Of a stretch of DNA of 64,000 bases, positions 1,281 to 22,604 are shown in pieces; position 1 is the stretch's first letter, and every line of letters starts with the position of its first letter. The notes beneath the pieces were generated by a model that worked only from the letters and a program-made list of their open reading frames with translations, was not told the origin of the DNA and did not search any database. The position numbers were made by a program, and so were the translations under genes. The stretch lies in the NCBI RefSeq assembly GCF_057098645.1, contig NZ_CM169472.1, one strand, 5' to 3'.

Positions 1281-1313
1281 TTATATCATTGCAGGCGCCT
1301 GGTCAGTATCGTT

Positions 1314-1344
1314 GCCCGGATAAAGCGTTCACGCCGCATCCGGC
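1314..1344. repeat. REP (repetitive extragenic palindromic) element
   Basis: gcccggataaagcgttcacgccgcatccggc is the reverse complement of the classical REP consensus GCCGGATGCGGCGTGAACGC...TTATCCGG. Confidence 0.7.
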
Positions 1345-1590
1345 TAAAAATGACGCACTACAGCCTGCTTTAATGGGTTTCTCACGATCGTACCTCTCCG
1401 TTCCTCGCTAAGTTATTCTGTGAGTTATAGTTATAGAGAAATCACGGGTACGAATGTTGAACAGATGGCGACGCCACCTGTTCAACGACCAACCACACGG
1501 CCCTCATTACGCCCCCTGAACACAAACGGTAATGGCAAATGTCATTAAATATTAGTAAGATAGCCTCTTTACATAAAATCCCTTAATATT

Positions 1591-3234
1591 ATGCGCCAGG
1601 TATTATCGTCTCTTTTGGTGATTGCTGGACTTGTGAATGGTCAGGCAATCGCCGCGCCTGAACCCACCCCGCATGCTGATATCCGCGACAGCGGTTTTGT
1701 CTATTGCGTCAGCGGGCAAGTCAACACCTTTAACCCATCCAAAGCGAGCAGTGGGTTAATTGTCGATACCCTTGCCGCCCAGTTTTATGATCGACTGCTG
1801 GATGTCGATCCGTATACCTATCGTCTGATGCCAGAACTTGCCGAAAGCTGGGAAGTGCTCGACAACGGCGCGACTTATCGCTTCCACCTGCGTCGCGATG
1901 TCCCGTTTCAAAAAACCGCCTGGTTTACTCCCACTCGCAAAATGAATGCCGATGATGTGGTGTTTACCTTCCAACGGATTTTTGACCGCAATAACCCGTG
2001 GCATAACGTCAACGGTAGTAACTTCCCCTATTTCGACAGTCTGCAATTTGCCGATAACGTTAAAAGCGTCCGCAAGCTGGATAATCATACCGTTGAGTTC
2101 CGTCTGGCTCAGCCGGATGCTTCTTTTTTGTGGCACCTCGCAACCCATTATGCTTCGGTCATGTCGGCAGAATATGCCCGGAAGTTAGAGAAAGAAGATC
2201 GCCAGGAGCAACTCGACCGTCAACCGGTCGGCACTGGACCGTATCAGTTGTCGGAATACCGCGCCGGGCAATTTATTCGCCTACAACGTCATGATGACTT
2301 CTGGCGCGGTAAACCGTTAATGCCGCAGGTGGTGGTGGATTTAGGCTCCGGCGGCACCGGACGTCTGTCGAAACTCCTGACCGGGGAATGCGACGTTCTG
2401 GCCTGGCCTGCTGCCAGCCAGCTATCCATTTTGCGTGACGACCCGCGCTTGCGTTTAACGCTGCGTCCTGGGATGAACGTCGCCTATCTGGCATTTAACA
2501 CCGCCAAACCGCCGCTAAATAATCCCGCTGTCCGCCATGCGCTGGCACTGGCGATTAATAACCAGCGCCTGATGCAATCCATCTATTATGGTACGGCTGA
2601 AACGGCGGCCTCTATTTTACCGCGCGCCTCGTGGGCCTATGACAACGAGGCTAAAATTACTGAATACAATCCGGCGAAATCGCGCGAACAGTTGAAGTCG
2701 TTGGGGCTGGAAAATTTAACGCTGAAACTGTGGGTGCCCACACGTTCGCAGGCGTGGAACCCCAGTCCACTGAAAACTGCCGAACTGATTCAGGCGGATA
2801 TGGCGCAGGTTGGCGTAAAAGTGGTGATTGTGCCGGTAGAAGGTCGCTTTCAGGAGGCGCGGTTGATGGATATGAGCCATGATCTGACGTTATCCGGTTG
2901 GGCGACGGACAGTAACGACCCGGACAGTTTCTTCCGTCCGTTACTGAGCTGCGCGGCAATTCATTCACAGACCAACCTCGCCCACTGGTGCGATCCGAAA
3001 TTCGACAGCGTGTTGCGTAAGGCGCTCTCCTCGCAGCAGCTGGCGGCGCGTATTGAAGCCTATGACGAAGCGCAGAGTATTCTGGCGCAGGAATTGCCCA
3101 TTTTGCCGCTGGCGTCGTCATTGCGTTTGCAGGCCTATCGGTACGATATCAAAGGTCTGGTGCTTAGCCCGTTTGGTAACGCCTCCTTTGCTGGGGTGTA
3201 TCGCGAGAAACAGGATGAGGTGAAAAAACCATGA
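1591..3234 (+). CDS. sapA: periplasmic substrate-binding protein of the Sap (peptide/putrescine) ABC transporter
   Basis: 547 aa with signal peptide; first gene of a five-gene ABC operon; recognised as SapA. Confidence 0.9.
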
Positions 3235-6923: not shown

Positions 6924-8087
6924 TTACTTTTGATTGTCGATTCTGGTGAGAGCAACCAGGAATGCCAGTGTATAACACACCGTAATTGCCAGACTCATTT
7001 TTAACAGTGTTTCTCCGCCAAATCCCGACAATGGCGCGGCTATACCGCCGAAGACAAACATGCTCATCCCCATCAACGCAGACGCCGTTCCAGATTCCTG
7101 TGTCCCTACTGCACTCATAGCCTCTGCCCCGCCAACAGTGCCGATGCCGCTACAAAATGCAATAGTGAAAAATAATGCCACCAGTGCCGGAATGGGCAAT
7201 TGTGTCCATGCGCATAAGACCGTGAGCAATGCACACAAAATTGCCGCTATCAGGCCACCTCGCAACAATGTCATCGCATTAATCCGTCGCGCCAGACGCG
7301 AAAAGATCCATGAAGCAATGATAAGTCCGATGCCGTTAAGGCCAAACACCAGGCTAAATTGCATTGGACTAAAGCCAAATTCCTTCTGCAACACGAACGA
7401 CGAAGAGCCGATATACGCAAACAAGCCTGCCAGCATAAAACTTTGAATCAGGCAAAAGCGCATAAAACGGCGGTTCTGCACCACGCTTCGTCCGGTTAAT
7501 AGCAATGATGAGCCCCTTTTATTTTCTGGCAAGGTCTCATTAATAAATAACACGCAGCCCAGCAACAATACGGCGCTAATTTCAGCCATTACCCAGAATA
7601 AAGTGCGCCAGTCAAAAGTGCTAACAATGTACCCGCCCAGCACTGGCGACAACACCGGTGCCAGGCCATTCACCGTCATTAACAGCGCAAAAAACTGGGT
7701 CAACGTTACTCCCTGATATTTGTCACGAGCAATAGAACGAGAGAGCACCGAACCACCCGCCCCCGCGATCCCTTGAATAAAACGCCAGACCACCAGCCAG
7801 TAAATATTGTTCGTTGTCGCGCACAAAATGGAAGAAACAATAAACAATAGCAACGACAAGATTAACGGACGTTTACGCCCTATTTTGTCGCTCAGAGGGC
7901 CAAATAACAGTTGTCCGACGCCAAGACCGATCAGTGATGCAGTCAGCGTTAATTGCGTTATGGTCGTGGTTGCCGCCAGTTGCTCAGACATCTCCGGCAA
8001 AGCCGGCAAATAAAGATCGGTACACATCGGGCCGATACCGGCTAAAAGACCAAGAATCAATGCCCATGAAAGAGAGACTCTAGCCAT
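6924..8087 (-). CDS. MFS transporter, Bcr/CflA-like drug-efflux subfamily
   Basis: 387 aa, about 12 predicted TM helices; N-terminal DLYLPALP-type motif; 9 bp downstream of the OMF gene on the same strand. Confidence 0.75.
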   Translation of the reverse strand: MARVSLSWALILGLLAGIGPMCTDLYLPALPEMSEQLAATTTITQLTLTASLIGLGVGQLLFGPLSDKIGRKRPLILSLLLFIVSSILCATTNNIYWLVVWRFIQGIAGAGGSVLSRSIARDKYQGVTLTQFFALLMTVNGLAPVLSPVLGGYIVSTFDWRTLFWVMAEISAVLLLGCVLFINETLPENKRGSSLLLTGRSVVQNRRFMRFCLIQSFMLAGLFAYIGSSSFVLQKEFGFSPMQFSLVFGLNGIGLIIASWIFSRLARRINAMTLLRGGLIAAILCALLTVLCAWTQLPIPALVALFFTIAFCSGIGTVGGAEAMSAVGTQESGTASALMGMSMFVFGGIAAPLSGFGGETLLKMSLAITVCYTLAFLVALTRIDNQK

Positions 8088-8095
8088 ATTATTCC

Positions 8096-9469
8096 TTACT
8101 TGAGTGATGACATGCCGCCGCCCAGCGACTGCCAGAGCGTGATTCGGTTTGTAAAATCAGTCAGTTGCAGTGCCAGTAGCTCCTGCTGTGCGCTCCACAA
8201 GCTGCGCTGCGCCGTCAACACGGTCAGGTAATCACCAACACCCGTCTGATAGCGACGCAAGCCAACATCGACCGTTTGTTGCTCAGCTTTAACATACTGG
8301 CGCTGTGCATCCAGTTGCTCTTCAAGCGTGGTCCGCCGCGCCAGTGCGTTAGCGACATCTTTAAATGCGCTCTGAACGGTTTTTTCATAGGTGGCAATGA
8401 GTCCACGCTTTTGTGCTTCTGCGTAACGAAGCTGCGCCAGATTACTTCCGCCAGTGAACAGCGGTAATGTGACCGATGGCGTAAATGACCAGATCTGCAT
8501 TCCGTGGCTGAACAACGACGACAATGCGTCACTGCCAACACCAGCGCTGGCAGTCAGCGAAATCGTCGGGAAAAAGTTAGCCCGCGCCGCGCCAATATCG
8601 GCATTGGCGCTCTTCAAATTATGTTCCGCTTCCTGGATATCCGGGCGACGCAGCAGAACGTCAGATGACACTCCCGCAGGAACCAGACTTATCATCTGTT
8701 CCGGCAGGCTTTCCAGTGTTCCCGGTAGCAAATTTTCCTCAAGCGTTGTACCTGCCAGTAAGTTCAGCGCATTTTTATCCTGCATCACTTGTGTCTGATA
8801 GCTGGCAACGCTGGCGCGCGCTTGCTGATAAACACTCATCGCCTCACTGACATCTGTCGCTGCCGCCGTGCCAACCTGTTGCTGGCGCTGGATAATTTTC
8901 AATGAGTTTTCTGCACTGGTCATCGTTTCTTTTGCCAGGGCCAGGTTGCTGTTATCGGCCGCCAGTGTCAGCCAGGCGGTGCTGATTTCAGCAATCAGCG
9001 TTAAACGGGTGTTCTGGGCTGTAAATTCACTGGCAAGCCAGGTTTCTCGCGCCGCCCGAGATAAACTCTGATTACGACCAAACAGATCTAACGTAAAACT
9101 GGACACCGTGCCGTCAGCCTCGGCAGTGGTTTCCGTACCATTCGCCAGCGAACGACTGCGGGTTGAACTTAAGGCCGCATTCACCGTCGGGAATAACGAC
9201 GCATTAGTTTGCCCATAGAGCGCCCGTGCTGAGTCAATATCAGCAATCGCTTTTTGCACATCGCGGTTACTGTTCAGTGCAATAGTCACCACCTGCTGCA
9301 ATCGGGGATCGTGGATCACCTGCTGCCAGTCATGGCTGATTGCCTTTCCCTGGCCCTGTGCTCCCGGCAAGGTCGCCGGGATTGGGGATTCAGGCGTGCT
9401 GTAGTGGGGATCGAGCGAGACACATCCCGCACTCAACAGCACCAGAAAAATAAGAGAACGACGCAACAT
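8096..9469 (-). CDS. outer-membrane efflux lipoprotein (NodT/OprM-type OMF)
   Basis: 457 aa; lipobox LSAGC near N-terminus; coiled-coil rich; follows the RND gene with a 4 bp gap. Confidence 0.8.
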   Translation of the reverse strand: MLRRSLIFLVLLSAGCVSLDPHYSTPESPIPATLPGAQGQGKAISHDWQQVIHDPRLQQVVTIALNSNRDVQKAIADIDSARALYGQTNASLFPTVNAALSSTRSRSLANGTETTAEADGTVSSFTLDLFGRNQSLSRAARETWLASEFTAQNTRLTLIAEISTAWLTLAADNSNLALAKETMTSAENSLKIIQRQQQVGTAAATDVSEAMSVYQQARASVASYQTQVMQDKNALNLLAGTTLEENLLPGTLESLPEQMISLVPAGVSSDVLLRRPDIQEAEHNLKSANADIGAARANFFPTISLTASAGVGSDALSSLFSHGMQIWSFTPSVTLPLFTGGSNLAQLRYAEAQKRGLIATYEKTVQSAFKDVANALARRTTLEEQLDAQRQYVKAEQQTVDVGLRRYQTGVGDYLTVLTAQRSLWSAQQELLALQLTDFTNRITLWQSLGGGMSSLK

Positions 9470-9472
9470 AAC

Positions 9473-12400
9473 TTACTCCTGACGGCGCGGTTTACCGGCA
9501 AACAAACGTTTCACCAGTACAAAAAACAGAGGAACAAAGAAAATAGCCAGCAACGTAGCGGTCAGCGTACCGCCAATAATGCCCGTACCAATGGCGATGC
9601 GGCTGTTCGCCCCTGCGCCGGTTGCTATCGCCAGCGGCATTACCCCCGCAATAAACGCCAGCGAGGTCAAGATGATTGGGCGTAAACGAGTCTGCGCCGC
9701 GCGTAATGCCGCACGACTCAAGGAATAACCCTCTGCAACCGCCGCTTCAGCAAATTCCACAATCAGAATGGCGTTTTTCGACGACAAGCCGATAGTGGTT
9801 AATAGCGCCACCTGGAAGTAAACATCGTTGTTTAAATCACGCATCCAGGCCGCCAGCGCCGCGCCAAGAAGCCCCAGAGGGATCACCAGAATGACCGAGA
9901 ACGGGACTGACCAGCTTTCGTACAGTGCTGCAAGGCAGAGGAAAACCACCAGAATAGAAACTGCATACAGACTCAATGCCTGACCGCTGGCCAGTTTCTC
10001 CTGCAATGACAAACCACTCCAGGCCCAGGTTGTTCCCGCAGGAAGACTGTTTGCCAGTTCCTCCATTTTTGTCATTGCATCGCCGGAACTAAAGCCAGTC
10101 GCATTTTCCCCCTGAATTTCATAGGCTGCAGAACCGTTGTAGCGCACCAGTCTTTCCGGTCCATACAGCCAGCGGGTGGTCGCAAAAGCAGAGAATGGTG
10201 TCATGGCGTTATCGCTACCGCGCACACACCATTTACCTAAGTCTGACGGCGCGGAACGAAATTCACTGTCGCCCTGAATGTAGACTTTTTTCACACGACC
10301 ACGGTCAATAAAGTCATTCACATAAGTACCGCCCCACGCACTGGACAGGGTGTCGGTGACATCATTCAAACTCAACCCTAATGACACCGCTTTATTACTA
10401 TCAATATCTACCTGCAATTGCGGCATTTGTGGCAAATCATTGGCACGAACAGAATGTAACTCCGGACTTTGATTCGCTTTTTCTATCAACTGATTACGCA
10501 TTTGCAGTAGTGTTTCGCGATCGGTTCCACCGTTAGCTAACAATTCAAACGTAAAACCATTGCTTTGCCCCAGCCCATCAACGGCTGGCGGCGTCATCGC
10601 AAATACCGTGGCATCACGAATTGTGCCCAGCTCTTTGGTTGCCCGTAGGGCGATAGCCTGGGCGGTGTTTTCTGCCCCTTTACGTTGAGACCAGTTTTTC
10701 AACGAAACAAACGCCATCCCGGTGTTCTGTCCGCTGCCGCTAAAACTGAAACCATCAACGGTAAAAATGACATCGGTATTTGCTTTCTCGTTAATCAGGA
10801 ACCAGTCAACAATCTGGCGATTCACTTCTGCTGTACGGGCAGCGGTCGCCCCGGCCGGCAGCGTGTACTGCACCATGATTTCGCCCTGGTCTTCAGTGGG
10901 TAAGAAACTGCCCGGCAGTTTCCACATCATCAGGGCCATTCCACCACCCAGTACGAGATAAAGCCCCATCGTTCGAGCAGCACGGCGCAGGACATAAATT
11001 ACGCCTCGCTGATATTTATCTTCAGTACGGCGGTAAAAGCGGTTAAATGCGCCGAAAAAGCCTTTTTTATGTGGCGGAACATGCTGGAGGACGGAACCGC
11101 ACAGGGCGGGAGTCAAGGTCAATGCCACCACCACGGAAAGCAGCATTGCGGAGATAATGGTTATCGAAAACTGACGATAAATTACCCCCGTAGATCCCCC
11201 AAAGAAGGCCATAGGCAGGAATACGGCTGACAACACCAGCGCAATGGCAACCAGTGCGCCAGAAATCTCGCCCATTGATTTTTCCGTGGCTTCACGCGCG
11301 GGCAACCCTTCGTCACGCATAATGCGTTCGACGTTCTCCACTACCACAATGGCATCGTCCACCAGCAAGCCGATCGCCAGCACCATTGCAAACAACGTCA
11401 GGGTATTAATCGAATAGCCAAACAACGCAAGAACGCCGAATGTGCCCAGCAAAACGACGGGGACAGCTAACCCCGGAATCAGTGTGGCACGCAGGTTTTG
11501 CAGGAATAAATACATCACGCAAACCACCAATACGATGGCTTCAAACAGCGTCTGAATTACGTCCTCTACAGAGATTTTAATAAATTCAGTGCTGTCTTTC
11601 GGGTAAGCGATGTCGTATCCCTGCGGCATGTTCCGCTGGAATTCGGCAATCTTATCCTTGACCAGCGTCGCCGTATTCAGCGCATTCGCACCGGGCGAAA
11701 GCATTACAGCAACCCCGGCAGACGGGTGACCGTTAAGTTTGCCGATAGCGGTATAATCTTCACTGCCCATCTCAACGCGAGCCACATCTTTTATACGAAC
11801 AACTGCGCCGTCTGACTGGCTTTTCACGATAATATTTTTGAACTGATCCACCGTCTGCAAGCGAGACTGCGCACGTACCGTTGCGGTCAGTTGCTGAGTA
11901 TTCGGTGAAGGCAATGCCCCTATTTTCCCGGCAGTAACCTGCACGTTTTGCGCTTCAATAGCACTTTGCACGTCTGAAGGCATTAGCGAGTAAGACGCCA
12001 GTTTGGCCGGGTCAAGCCAGATGCGCATAGCGTATTCCGCGCCAAAGACTTGCAGACTCCCCACACCTTCAACACGCGCCAGCGGGTCCTGAACGTTACT
12101 AACCAACCAGTCGGCGATATCCGAACTAGAGGCTTTGTCAGTGGTGTCATACACGGCAGCAATCAGCAAAAAGTTGCTTTGTGATTTCTCCACCGTAACA
12201 CCCGTTTGCTGCACTTCGCTAGGTAGGCGCGACTCCGCCTGCTGAATTTTATTCTGCACCTGAACCTGTGCAGTATCTGGATCGGTACCTTGTTCAAAGG
12301 TCACATTAATACTGACCGAACCATCAGAGCTGCTGGTTGAGCTGAAATAGAGTAAATTATCAAGCCCAGTGAGTTGTTGCTCGATAACCTGAGTCACGCT

Positions 12401-12580
12401 GTTCTCCAGCGTTTCGGCAGAAGCACCAGTATAAGTGGCTGAAATTTTAATGGTCGGTGGCGCAACGTCAGGATATTGCGCGACGGGCAATGTGCGAATA
12501 GCCAGAATCCCCGCCAACATAATCAAAATGGCGATAACCCAGGCAAAGACCGGGCGGCGAACAAAAAAGCGCGAAAACAT
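9473..12580 (-). CDS. RND (HAE1-type) inner-membrane efflux pump
   Basis: 1035 aa; AcrB-like N-terminus MFSRFFVRRPVFAWVIAILIML; two large periplasmic loops and 12 TM pattern. Confidence 0.9.
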   Translation of the reverse strand: MFSRFFVRRPVFAWVIAILIMLAGILAIRTLPVAQYPDVAPPTIKISATYTGASAETLENSVTQVIEQQLTGLDNLLYFSSTSSSDGSVSINVTFEQGTDPDTAQVQVQNKIQQAESRLPSEVQQTGVTVEKSQSNFLLIAAVYDTTDKASSSDIADWLVSNVQDPLARVEGVGSLQVFGAEYAMRIWLDPAKLASYSLMPSDVQSAIEAQNVQVTAGKIGALPSPNTQQLTATVRAQSRLQTVDQFKNIIVKSQSDGAVVRIKDVARVEMGSEDYTAIGKLNGHPSAGVAVMLSPGANALNTATLVKDKIAEFQRNMPQGYDIAYPKDSTEFIKISVEDVIQTLFEAIVLVVCVMYLFLQNLRATLIPGLAVPVVLLGTFGVLALFGYSINTLTLFAMVLAIGLLVDDAIVVVENVERIMRDEGLPAREATEKSMGEISGALVAIALVLSAVFLPMAFFGGSTGVIYRQFSITIISAMLLSVVVALTLTPALCGSVLQHVPPHKKGFFGAFNRFYRRTEDKYQRGVIYVLRRAARTMGLYLVLGGGMALMMWKLPGSFLPTEDQGEIMVQYTLPAGATAARTAEVNRQIVDWFLINEKANTDVIFTVDGFSFSGSGQNTGMAFVSLKNWSQRKGAENTAQAIALRATKELGTIRDATVFAMTPPAVDGLGQSNGFTFELLANGGTDRETLLQMRNQLIEKANQSPELHSVRANDLPQMPQLQVDIDSNKAVSLGLSLNDVTDTLSSAWGGTYVNDFIDRGRVKKVYIQGDSEFRSAPSDLGKWCVRGSDNAMTPFSAFATTRWLYGPERLVRYNGSAAYEIQGENATGFSSGDAMTKMEELANSLPAGTTWAWSGLSLQEKLASGQALSLYAVSILVVFLCLAALYESWSVPFSVILVIPLGLLGAALAAWMRDLNNDVYFQVALLTTIGLSSKNAILIVEFAEAAVAEGYSLSRAALRAAQTRLRPIILTSLAFIAGVMPLAIATGAGANSRIAIGTGIIGGTLTATLLAIFFVPLFFVLVKRLFAGKPRRQE

Positions 12581-13701
12581 CAGGCGTTGCCTCCATTAGC
12601 CTGAACTTCAACAGCCTTGACCGTCTGCCCTGAAGTGACTTTGGCAGAACCTTCAACAATCAGTCGGTCGCCGTTGTGCAGGCCGTTTAGCACCAGCCAT
12701 TTATCACCATATGTTTCTCCCGTTTCGAGCGTTCGCTGCTCTACTTTATTGTCTTTATTCACCACCAGCGCAGTTGCATTGCCTTTAGCATCGCGCGTGA
12801 CGCCCTGTTGCGGCGCGAGAATAGCGTCTTCCATCACGCCTTCATCGACACGAGCGCCAACAAACATTCCCGGTAATAACTGCTGTTGTGGATTGGGGAA
12901 AATCGCCCGTAATGTCACCGAACCGGTAGACTCATCTACAGCGACTTCGGTGAGTTCCAGACGCCCTTTTTCGCTGTAGGTTGTGCCATCTTCCAGAATA
13001 AGTGAGACGCTCATGGTGTCACTGTTGGTCGCCAGTGACTGTTTACGCAGACGTAATAAATCGACACTGGAGCGAGTGAGGTCGACATACATTGTATCCA
13101 GACCACGAATAGTCGTTAACGCTGTATCTTGCGACGCGGTCACCAGTGCGCCAGGGGTTACCGACGAAATGCCAATGCGCCCTGAAATCGGTGCGGTTAC
13201 CGTGGTCCAGTCAAGATTAATGCGCGCAGTTTCCAGTGCGGCTTTTTTCGCCTCTACACTGGCTTTATCTTGTGCACAGGTAGACTGAGCATCATCAGCA
13301 TCCTGTTGTGAAACACCGTTCTCTTTCACCAGTCGGGCATAACGCTGCGCTTTCTGGCAATCGGCTTTTACCAGTGCCTGTGCTTGTTGTAATGCAGCCC
13401 GAGCTTCATTCCATGCAGCCTGATAACTGGCCGCATCAATCTGGTAGAGCGGCTGTCCAGCCTTGACCAGATCACCTTCCTTAAATAAGCGTTTCTGGAT
13501 AATTCCCCCAACCTGCGGACGTACTTCGGCACTGAGCGCAGCACTGGTGCGTCCGGTTAATTCACTGACTACCGAGACCGGTTGAGATTTGACTGTAACA
13601 ACGCCGACTTCTGTTTCTGACGGGGATGAATTGTCACTTTGCGTATTATCACAACCAGATAAGAGCAGCATTGCCACTACAGATGTTGCTATATACTTCA
13701 T
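12580..13701 (-). CDS. RND periplasmic adaptor (membrane fusion protein), lipoprotein
   Basis: start chosen at MKYIATS (lipobox LLSGC) preceded by GGAG; biotinyl-lipoyl/beta-barrel MFP-like translation; stop overlaps RND start. Confidence 0.8.
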   Translation of the reverse strand: MKYIATSVVAMLLLSGCDNTQSDNSSPSETEVGVVTVKSQPVSVVSELTGRTSAALSAEVRPQVGGIIQKRLFKEGDLVKAGQPLYQIDAASYQAAWNEARAALQQAQALVKADCQKAQRYARLVKENGVSQQDADDAQSTCAQDKASVEAKKAALETARINLDWTTVTAPISGRIGISSVTPGALVTASQDTALTTIRGLDTMYVDLTRSSVDLLRLRKQSLATNSDTMSVSLILEDGTTYSEKGRLELTEVAVDESTGSVTLRAIFPNPQQQLLPGMFVGARVDEGVMEDAILAPQQGVTRDAKGNATALVVNKDNKVEQRTLETGETYGDKWLVLNGLHNGDRLIVEGSAKVTSGQTVKAVEVQANGGNA

Positions 13702-13849
13702 TATTTTCTCCAGGGTGAGAAATACCCTCCTCATTAAAATCAATGAGGATATATCAGGGATATTCAGTTATAACGAACCCGCATCGCGAAATGAATTTCG
13801 CAATGAAATAAGGGGGATTAATATCCCCCGCTATTGGTTAATTCTGTTC

Positions 13850-14416
13850 TTATTTATTTATCAACATACTAACAATATCCTGATATATTTCCTGCAGATG
13901 TTGTGGATCGCTTTTTTGCGGTGTTAAACGACGATAAACCGTACCTTCCATCATGGTAGCAAACACTTCAACGCAGCAACGAATGTGCTCGTCGCTAAGA
14001 TGGGGATGCATTCTTTTCATATGTGCACAACCGTTAGCGAACATTCTGGCGTCAGCTTCTTCAAGCATTGCCATAACCCGCGGGTTGCGTGTGGCTTCTG
14101 CAGCCACTTCCAGCATCAGCGCGTCGTCGTCCTCATTTAAGGATTTACGCAAGGCAAGGACTTCCGGGAAGTGATCGGTACGCGCGTCAATGTCCATTTG
14201 GGCAATACGAAAGTCGATGATACGGCGAACCATCTCTTCAATAATGGCGTCTTTGTTGGCGAAGTAACGATATATCTGACCCACGCTAAGCTGAGCTTCG
14301 CTGGCAATTTGCGACATACTGGCGGCATGAAACCCGCAGCGACGAAAACACCGACGGGCGGCGTTAATGATTTCATCCTGACGCTGTTTGTGGCGTATCT
14401 CCAGCTTGCTGGTCAT
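13850..14416 (-). CDS. TetR-family transcriptional regulator
   Basis: N-terminal HTH (AARRCFRRCGFHAASMSQIASEAQLSVGQIYRYF); start chosen at MTSKLE preceded by AGGAGA; a longer ORF to 14515 is possible. Confidence 0.75.
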   Translation of the reverse strand: MTSKLEIRHKQRQDEIINAARRCFRRCGFHAASMSQIASEAQLSVGQIYRYFANKDAIIEEMVRRIIDFRIAQMDIDARTDHFPEVLALRKSLNEDDDALMLEVAAEATRNPRVMAMLEEADARMFANGCAHMKRMHPHLSDEHIRCCVEVFATMMEGTVYRRLTPQKSDPQHLQEIYQDIVSMLINK

Positions 14417-14893
14417 TTCTGTCTCCTGGCCTATCACTTGGTGAGAATGATCGTTCTCATTTTTGCTGATTATACGTTTCTCCAAAGTAATGGAAAGTAT
14501 TTTTATCTTATTCATGGTGCATATTCTGATAATGAAGAGATTGTGGAGATTCTGTGAAGATAGTTGACAATATTAAGTTGGGGTCAATTCATCAGAAAGG
14601 CTGCTACTTGTTGTCGCCAGTTCTGTTTTCATCATCAAACTTATCGGAGCTAATACGAATAGTTTCATAGTCAGATTCTATAAGATATTTCCCCAACCTA
14701 CCCCTTGCAGGCGTCAAGAGTAGATAACGCAAAATGCTCTGTACCGCAGCTTCTCTCCGGTACAGAAAGCGCAACTATAGCCACCCACAGCCAGGTTGAT
14801 TATAATAACCGTTTATCTGTTCGTACTGTTTACTAAAACGACGAATCGCCTGATTTTCAGGCACAACAAGCATCAACAATAAGGATTAAAGCT

Positions 14894-22336: not shown

Positions 22337-22604
22337 CCATTTCCCTTCTCTACGGATGATTTGCAGTTTGGCAAATCATCCGCTCTAAGATGATTCCTGG
22401 TTGATAATTAAGACTATTTACCTGTTATTAACACTCTCAAGATATAAAATTATTATCAGCGATATAACAGGAAGTCATTATCACCTGCGTGATATAACCC
22501 TGCGCGCGAGCGGATTTCACGGAATAATTTCACCAGGCTTATTCTTAGCTATTATAGTTATAGAGAGCTTACTTCCGTGAATCATAAATTCAGGAGAGAG
22601 TATT

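What the first reader, a model, noticed from the sequence alone, without database searches (positions are those of the whole stretch)
1414..1440. Shared short motif upstream of sapA and upstream of osmB (probably weak)
ttattct...ttatagttatagagaa (1414-1440) and cttattcttag..ttatagttatagagag (22538-22567) share a 15/16 core with a ttattct box about 10 nt upstream. Both lie in 5' leader or promoter regions. An exact 15-mer match is expected by chance a few times in a window this size, so this may be coincidence; it is recorded because both copies are in comparable positions relative to a downstream gene.
Basis: seen in the sequence. Interest (0 to 1): 0.15.

Follow-up and report, generated by a model that had tools for sequence, protein, structure and literature searches.

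The report
Two promoters share one core sequence
The repeated 15-base motif is the RNA-polymerase recognition core (-10 box through the start base) of two separate stationary-phase/stress promoters in E. coli, the known osmB P2 promoter and the sapABCDF promoter; this is ordinary promoter biology, not a new regulatory element.

Summary
TTATAGTTATAGAGA occurs exactly twice in the window, at 1425-1439 and 22552-22566 on the + strand. The window is E. coli O145:H28.

Published start-site maps place a transcription start on the 14th base (G) of both copies. These are the sapABCDF start (window 1438) and osmB P2 (22564/22565). Each 15-mer therefore spans -13 to +2 of a promoter: -10 hexamer TATAGT, A/T-rich discriminator TATAGA, start G.

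Both transcription units fall strongly in a delta-rpoS mutant in stationary phase. osmB drops about 5.6 log2 and sapA-F drop 2.2-4.0 log2.

In other genera the osmB copy aligns to the canonical sigma-S -10 element, CTATACTTAA.

Nothing supports a transcription-factor site:
- Similarity outside the 15-mer is at random level (13/47).
- The exact 15-mer is confined to E. coli.
- Individual strains carry SNPs inside it.
- The TTATTCT box at sapA is TTGTTCT in all seven other E. coli sequences read; the box-containing 45-mer is exact in only 29 of 5422 records.

A repeated 15-mer is also unremarkable here: the window holds seven such pairs.

Verdict: ordinary, essentially known, low interest. One small physiological hint remains: the Sap putrescine exporter may be co-regulated with osmB.

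The parts
1425..1439 (+). 15-mer copy 1: positions -13 to +2 of the sapABCDF promoter
   Evidence: Exact match. The K-12 start site at NC_000913.2 1355287 maps to window 1438, checked on the K-12 sequence.
1426..1431 (+). -10 hexamer TATAGT of the sapA promoter
   Evidence: Its last base lies 7 nt before the mapped start at 1438. The orthologous position in Citrobacter and Pseudocitrobacter reads TATATT, TATATG, TACAGC or TATAAT.
1438..1438 (+). Main sapABCDF transcription start (G); the 5' UTR is 153 nt
   Evidence: Cho et al. 2014 Table S6: 659 reads, sigma-70 and sigma-S binding, transcription unit sapABCDF-ycjD. Coordinate conversion verified.
1443..1443 (+). Minor alternative start (C), which would use the second unit TATAGA (1432-1437) as its -10
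   Evidence: Kim et al. 2012 exponential-phase table: position 1355282, value 2, 5' UTR 148 nt. The printed upstream 51-mer matches the K-12 sequence.
1413..1419 (+). TTATTCT 'box' at sapA, at -25..-19 in the promoter spacer; A1415 is a variant confined to this lineage
   Evidence: TTGTTCT in all 7 other E. coli sequences read, K-12 MG1655 included. The 45-mer is exact in only 29 of 5422 records.
22552..22566 (+). 15-mer copy 2: positions -13 to +2 of osmB P2
   Evidence: Exact match. osmB 5' UTR lengths are 41 and 148 nt in K-12 and 147, 40 and 17 nt in EDL933, which puts the start at 22564/22565.
22553..22558 (+). -10 hexamer TATAGT of osmB P2
   Evidence: The promoter scan finds TTCACC-18-TATAGT. 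It aligns to CTATACT in 8 of the 16 other-genus loci, and 13 of those 16 have C at -13.
22529..22534 (+). -35-like hexamer TTCACC of osmB P2
   Evidence: Promoter scan, 9 of 12 matches with an 18-nt spacer.
22564..22565 (+). osmB P2 transcription start (A/G)
   Evidence: 5' UTR of 41 nt in K-12 and 40 nt in EDL933 Cappable-seq.
22539..22545 (+). TTATTCT at osmB, at -26..-20 in the P2 spacer; not conserved in other genera
   Evidence: Sequence read. This stretch varies between genera in the alignment.
22386..22423 (+). Context only: RcsB-type boxes of the upstream promoter osmB P1 (TAAGATGATTCCTG at 22386-22399; conserved TTAAGACTATTTACC at 22409-22423). The P1 start is near 22457.
   Evidence: Pattern scan, alignment, Salmonella RcsB box TAAGACTTTTCTGA at -73..-59, 5' UTR of 147/148 nt.

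Best explanation
The 15-mer is not a regulator-binding site. It is the core of two independent sigma-70-family promoters, both used by the stationary-phase/stress sigma factor sigma-S. Read from the start site it is: T at -13, -10 hexamer TATAGT at -12..-7, A/T-rich discriminator TATAGA at -6..-1, start G at +1, A at +2.

One copy is the long-known osmB P2 promoter. The other is the promoter of the sapABCDF(-ycjD) operon, which lies 153 nt upstream of sapA.

Because this segment largely fixes where RNA polymerase melts DNA and starts, identical sequence gives the same start base at both loci. Both promoters have poor -35 elements and A/T-rich discriminators, which fits sigma-S use.

Shown by data: the start sites, sigma binding and rpoS-dependent expression (published data), and the sigma-S-type -10 at the osmB position in other genera.

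Inferred: the exact 15/15 identity is convergence or chance between two A/T-rich -10 regions, not a duplication or a selected common operator. The TTATTCT box is a coincidence.
For: - Start sites. The sapA unit starts at NC_000913.2 1355287 (659 reads), which is window 1438 and the 14th base of the 15-mer. osmB has 5' UTRs of 41/40 nt, which put its start at 22564/22565, the 13th/14th base. A weak second sapA start lies 5 nt downstream.
- Sigma-S. ChIP-chip shows sigma-70 plus sigma-S binding at the sapA start. There is an RpoS-holoenzyme SELEX peak in the osmB/yciT spacer. osmB and its promoter region are preferentially transcribed by E-sigma-S in vitro.
- Expression in stationary phase, WT versus delta-rpoS, log2: osmB about 15.0 versus 9.5; sapA 9.7 versus 7.4; sapB 10.7 versus 6.7; sapC, sapD and sapF fall 2.2-3.3.
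- Other genera. The osmB copy aligns to gCTATACTTAAAGAG, the sigma-S consensus form. The sapA copy aligns to a TATAnT element in Citrobacter and Pseudocitrobacter.
- The promoter scan finds TTCACC-18-TATAGT at osmB.
- No extended similarity: 13/47 identical outside the core, and local alignment stops at 15 nt.
- Seven repeats of at least 15 nt exist in the window anyway.
- SapC and SapF proteins rise after a NaCl water-activity downshift in O157 Sakai, consistent with osmB-like control.
Against: - ChIP-chip resolution is coarse, and 'D+S' is the commonest class in that table.
- The delta-rpoS effect on sap could be indirect.
- Neither E. coli copy has the sigma-S-favoured C at -13; both have T.
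- The RpoS-holoenzyme SELEX list excerpt for this part of the map has no sapA/ymjA peak.
- The original osmB promoter papers were not readable. The P2 assignment therefore rests on 5' UTR lengths in a later comparison table plus my own knowledge of Boulanger et al. 2005.
- In a simple random model, a 15-mer pair with an extra nearby 7-mer occurs in only 1.5% of windows. Chance is therefore not a perfect account for this particular strain.
Confidence: 0.85

Rival explanations
1. The identical core, including the normally unconstrained discriminator and start base, is kept by selection. It would give the two promoters the same kinetic behaviour (sigma-S selectivity, and response to osmolarity, supercoiling or ppGpp). 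Putrescine export by SapBCDF would then be co-induced with osmB on osmotic stress and on entry into stationary phase.
For: Both units are rpoS-dependent. Both start at the same base of the motif. SapC and SapF are induced after NaCl upshift. The 15-mer is retained in most E. coli: the osmB 45-mer is exact in 4401 of 5422 records, and the sapA 45-mer has 1-2 mismatches in 5390.
Against: The identity is E. coli-specific. Other genera have different sequences at both sites. Natural strains carry SNPs inside the 15-mer at discriminator positions: sapA TTATAGTTATAAAGA, osmB TTATAGTTATAGTGA, and a divergent 'E. coli' genome with TTATAGTTAAAGAGA. One strain has an extra hexamer at sapA. Within-species conservation is no higher than in the flanks.
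Confidence: 0.15
2. The motif, with the TTATTCT box, is a binding site for a shared transcription factor such as an osmotic or envelope-stress regulator (RcsB, YciT) or an unknown protein.
For: Both sites are in regulatory regions. The motif is a tandem hexamer (TTATAG)x2, which could suit a direct-repeat binder. A 7-mer box lies nearby in this strain.
Against: There is no RcsB-box match over either copy; the RcsB-type boxes lie 130-180 nt upstream at osmB. The YciT motif is palindromic, and its named targets are ybiO, ybiV and fsaA. The unknown osmotic-activator motif from Reg-Seq has an RcsB-like half, TCCTAAAAT. The box is TTGTTCT at sapA in every other E. coli read and is one base out of register. 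The region upstream of the -10 is not conserved across genera. No third extended copy exists in any of 5421 E. coli genomes.
Confidence: 0.04
3. Pure coincidence, with no function at the sapA copy: a chance 15-mer in a 5' leader.
For: Seven 15-mer pairs occur in the window. Simulations give about 2 per 64 kb.
Against: A 659-read transcription start sits on the 14th base, at the correct distance from TATAGT, and it is the only start listed for a unit beginning at sapA.
Confidence: 0.03
4. Remnant of a duplication, gene conversion or small mobile element, or a slippage-prone contingency repeat.
For: The core is a tandem hexamer. Strain YP3 has a third unit (TTATAGTTATAGTTATAAAGA) at sapA. A REP element lies 70 nt upstream.
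Against: There is no flanking similarity: 13/47 outside the core. The REP element ends at about 1356 and does not include the motif. Fifteen bases is too short for homologous conversion (established knowledge). Length variants are very rare: 2 of 5422 records fall in the 80-90% identity band.
Confidence: 0.02

Closest known systems
osmB P2 (osmBp2), the sigma-S-dependent, osmotically and stationary-phase-induced promoter of E. coli osmB (Jung et al. 1990; Boulanger et al. 2005, cited)
   Same: The second copy is this promoter. The start is 40/41 nt upstream of osmB. Expression is strongly rpoS-dependent. The separate upstream P1 promoter with RcsB boxes is also present.
   Different: Nothing differs for copy 2. 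Copy 1 is a different locus that shares only the -13..+2 segment.
Consensus sigma-S promoter -10 region (KCTAYRCTTAA: C at -13, TATACT, TAA at -6..-4; described and in the general literature)
   Same: Both copies have a TATAnT hexamer with A-11 and T-7, an A/T-rich discriminator and a weak -35, and both show rpoS-dependent expression. Orthologous osmB promoters in other genera match the consensus almost perfectly.
   Different: The E. coli copies have T rather than C at -13, G rather than C at -8, and TAT rather than TAA at -6..-4.
RcsB box TN(G/A)GAN4TC(T/C)NA (PMC7913699)
   Same: RcsB is a known regulator of osmB, and TTATTCTTAG superficially resembles half a box.
   Different: No match with 1 mismatch or fewer over either copy. 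The real boxes belong to osmB P1, far upstream.

Membership tests
Sigma-70-family core promoter used by sigma-S | -10 hexamer close to TATAAT/TATACT, with A at -11 and T at -7 | tested here: met
   TATAGT at 1426-1431 and 22553-22558.
Sigma-70-family core promoter used by sigma-S | Experimentally mapped transcription start about 7 nt downstream of the hexamer | tested here: met
   Published maps retrieved and converted to window coordinates: sapA 1438 and osmB 22564/22565.
Sigma-70-family core promoter used by sigma-S | Sigma-S holoenzyme occupancy at the promoter | tested here: met
   sapA start: ChIP-chip class D+S. osmB: RpoS SELEX peak and E-sigma-S preference in vitro. Resolution is coarse.
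Sigma-70-family core promoter used by sigma-S | Expression depends on rpoS | tested here: met
   Cho et al. 2014 Table S7: osmB falls about 5.6 log2 and sapA-F fall 2.2-4.0 log2 in delta-rpoS. An indirect effect is not excluded.
Sigma-70-family core promoter used by sigma-S | C at -13 (a sigma-S selectivity determinant) | tested here: not met
   T at -13 in both E. coli copies. C is present in 13 of 16 other-genus osmB orthologues. This feature is typical rather than obligatory.
Sigma-70-family core promoter used by sigma-S | Direct in vitro initiation by E-sigma-S at the sapA start | not testable with these tools
   Needs in vitro transcription or a footprint.
RcsB box | Match to TN(G/A)GAN4TC(T/C)NA | tested here: not met
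   No hit with 1 mismatch or fewer at 1413-1440 or 22539-22566. The nearest is 22386-22399.
Shared transcription-factor operator (generic) | Conservation of the site across related species, and recurrence at further co-regulated promoters | tested here: not met
   The exact 15-mer occurs only in E. coli among 1.58 Mb of related loci. Upstream flanks are not conserved. No third extended copy exists in 5421 genomes. A true genome-wide count of the bare 15-mer could not be run.
Dispersed repeat, mobile element or segmental duplication | Similarity extending beyond a short core, with recognisable ends | tested here: not met
   Local alignment stops at 15 nt. 13/47 identical outside the core.
Simple-sequence contingency (phase-variable) locus | Frequent repeat-number variation among strains | tested here: not met
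   Two hexamer units in nearly all strains. A three-unit allele was seen in YP3, and only 2 of 5422 records fall in the low-identity band.

The most novel reading that the evidence does not exclude
The identical -13..+2 core, discriminator included, may be functionally tuned. It would make sapABCDF (the putrescine exporter) fire together with osmB under sigma-S on hyperosmotic shock and in stationary phase. That would give a transcriptional basis for the classical putrescine efflux that accompanies osmotic upshift.
Probability: 0.15. Interest if true: 0.35.

Novelty: already known. Interest (0 to 1): 0.12.

Why it matters
It matters little. It shows that a short repeat flagged by eye resolves into two ordinary core promoters. 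One has been characterised since 1990. The other is already present in genome-wide start-site, sigma-binding and delta-rpoS datasets.

The one useful by-product concerns the sap operon. Its only mapped start lies 153 nt upstream of sapA. It carries an osmB-P2-like core and depends on rpoS. This is worth a line in promoter annotation, and it offers a testable link between osmotic or stationary-phase stress and putrescine export.

Tried and rejected
- The original osmB promoter paper (Boulanger 2005) is not held, by DOI or by PMC id.
- No paper in the library prints the motif sequence, and 'osmBp1/osmBp2' returns nothing.
- The Cappable-seq K-12 start-site table is truncated before 1.35 Mb.
- The ROSE supplement has no sapA or osmB entry. 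The 3'-end mapping preprint does not mention either gene.
- Sheet 1 of the EDL933 table, with starts per condition, was cut before these genes.
- Searches for sap plus RpoS found no paper that discusses it.
- Rfam finds only a sub-threshold naRNA4/REP match upstream and nothing over the motif.
- The sigma-70 pattern scan finds no -35/-10 pair at sapA, consistent with a weak -35.
- The RpoD-SELEX paper's predicted sapA promoter, ATGACA-15-TTTAAT, lies about 60 nt upstream of the mapped start. It has a 13-nt spacer in this strain. I rejected it as a pattern-only guess.
- My first guess, that TTATTCTTAG was the RcsB box, was rejected.
- The E. albertii locus (L007) contained neither site.
- A genome-wide count of the bare 15-mer in E. 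coli is not possible with BLAST at this database size, because a 15-nt hit exceeds the E-value limit. Only the absence of longer third copies could be shown.

Full report
**What is there.** The window matches E. coli O145:H28 strain RM9872 at 100%. It runs puuP-ymjA-sapABCDF-(7-kb efflux island)-fabI-yciW-rnb-pdeR-yciZ-yciT-osmB. The 15-mer TTATAGTTATAGAGA occurs exactly twice, at 1425-1439 and 22552-22566, both on the + strand. There is no further match at up to 2 mismatches. TTATTCT lies at 1413-1419 and 22539-22545, 5 and 6 nt upstream of the core. K-12 MG1655 carries both 15-mers.

**Is it more than chance?**
- A repeated 15-mer is not unusual. The window has seven independent direct repeats of at least 15 nt. 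First-order Markov sequences of equal length give 1.9 +/- 1.4.
- Local alignment does not extend the match beyond 15 nt.
- An additional shared 7-mer within 25 nt at a similar offset is rarer: 0.8% per pair, and 1.5% of simulated windows.
- That 7-mer is not a stable feature. At sapA it reads TTGTTCT in all seven other E. coli sequences read, K-12 MG1655 and a K-12-like strain included. The 45-mer containing the window's version is exact in only 29 of 5422 records, and 5390 carry 1-2 mismatches.

**What the osmB copy is.** A supplementary table comparing K-12 and EDL933 start sites lists osmB 5' UTR lengths of 41 and 148 nt (K-12) and 147, 40 and 17 nt (EDL933 Cappable-seq).
- On the sequence, the 40/41-nt start is window 22565/22564, the 14th/13th base of the 15-mer.
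- The first unit, TATAGT (22553-22558), is therefore the -10 hexamer. The scan pairs it with TTCACC at an 18-nt spacing. The TTATTCT box falls inside that spacer.
- This is the downstream promoter, osmB P2. It is described as sigma-S-dependent by Boulanger et al. 2005, which is cited; I could not read the paper itself.
- The upstream start (147/148 nt, about 22457) has a TAAAAT -10. It is preceded by RcsB-type boxes at 22386-22399 and 22409-22423. These fit the Salmonella RcsB box TAAGACTTTTCTGA at -73..-59.
- I aligned the osmB upstream region from 17 other loci fetched through FabI: one divergent 'E. coli' genome and 16 loci from other genera. The E. coli TTATAGTTATAGAG aligns to gCTATACTTAAAGAG. 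Eight of the 16 other-genus loci read CTATACT, and 13 have C at -13. That is the textbook sigma-S -10 element.

**What the sapA copy is.**
- Cho et al. 2014 (Table S6) list one start for a unit beginning at sapA: NC_000913.2 position 1355287, minus strand, 659 reads. Sigma binding is 'DS' (sigma-70 and sigma-S) and the genes are sapA-B-C-D-F-ycjD.
- Converted and checked on the K-12 sequence, this is the G at window 1438, again the 14th base of the 15-mer, 7 nt after the T of TATAGT.
- Kim et al. 2012 (exponential phase) list a weak start 5 nt further downstream, with a value of 2. Their printed upstream 51-mer contains the motif.
- The contrast between 2 and 659 reads suggests the promoter is mainly active outside exponential growth. 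This is an inference; the per-condition table could not be opened.
- In Citrobacter and Pseudocitrobacter the same position carries TATATT, TATATG, TACAGC or TATAAT. In Enterobacter and more distant genera the sapA upstream region is organised differently.

**Regulation.** Cho et al. 2014 (Table S7) compare WT with delta-rpoS in stationary phase, as log2 values.

| Gene | WT | delta-rpoS |
|---|---|---|
| osmB | 15.06 / 15.04 / 14.94 | 9.65 / 10.34 / 8.37 |
| sapA | 9.99 / 9.28 / 9.96 | 7.37 / 7.47 / 7.31 |
| sapB | about 10.7 | about 6.7 |

- sapC, sapD and sapF fall by 3.3, 2.7 and 2.2. The known sigma-S gene osmC falls by 2.6.
- The neighbouring ymjA and puu genes rise.
- The osmB/yciT spacer carries an RpoS-holoenzyme SELEX peak, and osmB is preferentially transcribed by E-sigma-S in vitro.
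- SapC and SapF proteins increase after a NaCl water-activity downshift in O157 Sakai.

**Explanation.** Each 15-mer is the -13..+2 core of a sigma-S/sigma-70 promoter: -10 TATAGT, discriminator TATAGA, start G. Because this segment sets where the polymerase opens DNA and starts, the same sequence yields the same start base.
- Outside the core, start-registered identity is 13/47. That rules out a duplicated segment.
- The exact 15-mer is absent from 1.58 Mb of related loci outside E. coli.
- Natural E. coli strains carry SNPs within it: sapA TTATAGTTATAAAGA, osmB TTATAGTTATAGTGA, and TTATAGTTAAAGAGA in a divergent 'E. coli' genome. One strain has a third hexamer at sapA.
- Neither 45-mer finds a second place in any E. 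coli genome apart from duplications.
- I therefore read the 15/15 identity as convergence or coincidence between two A/T-rich -10 regions, not as a selected operator.

**Rivals.**
- A shared transcription-factor site is not supported. There is no RcsB-box match. The YciT motif is palindromic with other named targets. The Reg-Seq osmotic-activator motif is RcsB-like. The upstream flanks are not conserved.
- 'No function at sapA' is contradicted by the mapped start.
- Selection for an identical discriminator to co-tune the two promoters cannot be excluded. Lineage specificity and the SNPs argue against it.

**Caveats.**
- ChIP-chip is low resolution, and 'DS' is the commonest class.
- The delta-rpoS effect may be indirect.
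- Both copies lack C at -13.
- The excerpt of the RpoS-SELEX list covering this part of the map shows no sapA peak.
- The osmB 5' UTR table legend was truncated, so I interpreted its columns from context. They agree with the sequence anatomy.

**Novelty and score.** osmB P2 is long known. The sapA start, its sigma binding and its rpoS dependence sit in published supplements. No searchable paper prints the motif sequence, so I found no report that the two cores are identical. It is a curiosity of low interest.

Noticed in passing
window 6924-14515 (minus strand): A 7-kb block lies between sapF and fabI in this strain, where K-12 has ycjD. It encodes a TetR/AcrR regulator, an RND adaptor, permease and outer-membrane subunit, and an MFS efflux pump.
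   Followed up: partly
window 1281-1595: The ymjA-sapA intergenic region of this O145:H28 lineage is unusually divergent. Only 26 of 5422 E. coli records are at least 99% identical, and 5241 are at 90-95%. The osmB region, by contrast, is at least 99% identical in 3747 records. This suggests a recombination import or an old allele.
   Followed up: partly
window 1291-1356: A REP-type palindromic element lies just after ymjA. It gives only a sub-threshold Rfam naRNA4 match (24 bits against a gathering score of 59.5) and does not include the motif.
   Followed up: partly
window 1455-1487 and 1523-1565: The 153-nt sapA 5' UTR contains a strong hairpin (GUUGAACAG...CUGUUCAAC). It also contains a block, CAAACGGTAATGGCAAATGTCATTAAATATTAGTAAGATAGCC, that is conserved in Citrobacter and Pseudocitrobacter and includes the near-palindrome ATGGCAAATGTCAT (1532-1545). 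This could be a regulator or sRNA site. It vaguely recalls PuuR half-sites, from memory and untested. The whole-UTR fold z-score is only -1.3.
   Followed up: partly
L005:177-197 (E. coli YP3): There is a third hexamer unit at the sapA promoter (TTATAGTTATAGTTATAAAGA). This is a rare slippage-type length variant that would move the start relative to the first -10.
   Followed up: partly
L092 (E. coli OkiPb01684), equivalent to window about 22549: An IS1A element is inserted immediately upstream of the osmB P2 -10, removing the -35 and the whole P1/RcsB region. The -10 reads TATAAGT, with one extra A.
   Followed up: no
K-12 expression table, genes b1285-b1298: In delta-rpoS stationary phase, ymjA, puuP, puuA, puuD, yciT, rnb and yciW go up. 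The adjacent sap operon, pdeR and osmB go down. Neighbouring units therefore show opposite sigma-S effects.
   Followed up: no
window 53326-53355 and 55856-55885: This is the longest direct repeat in the window: a 17-nt exact core (TTTTCTTTACGATTTAT) within a 25/30 match, about 2.5 kb apart. It was not examined.
   Followed up: no
window 22386-22423: Two RcsB-like boxes lie upstream of osmB P1. Both are conserved across genera (TCTGAGAnnnTTCYGAC and ATTAAGACTnTTTACC). The Salmonella study validated the distal one.
   Followed up: partly
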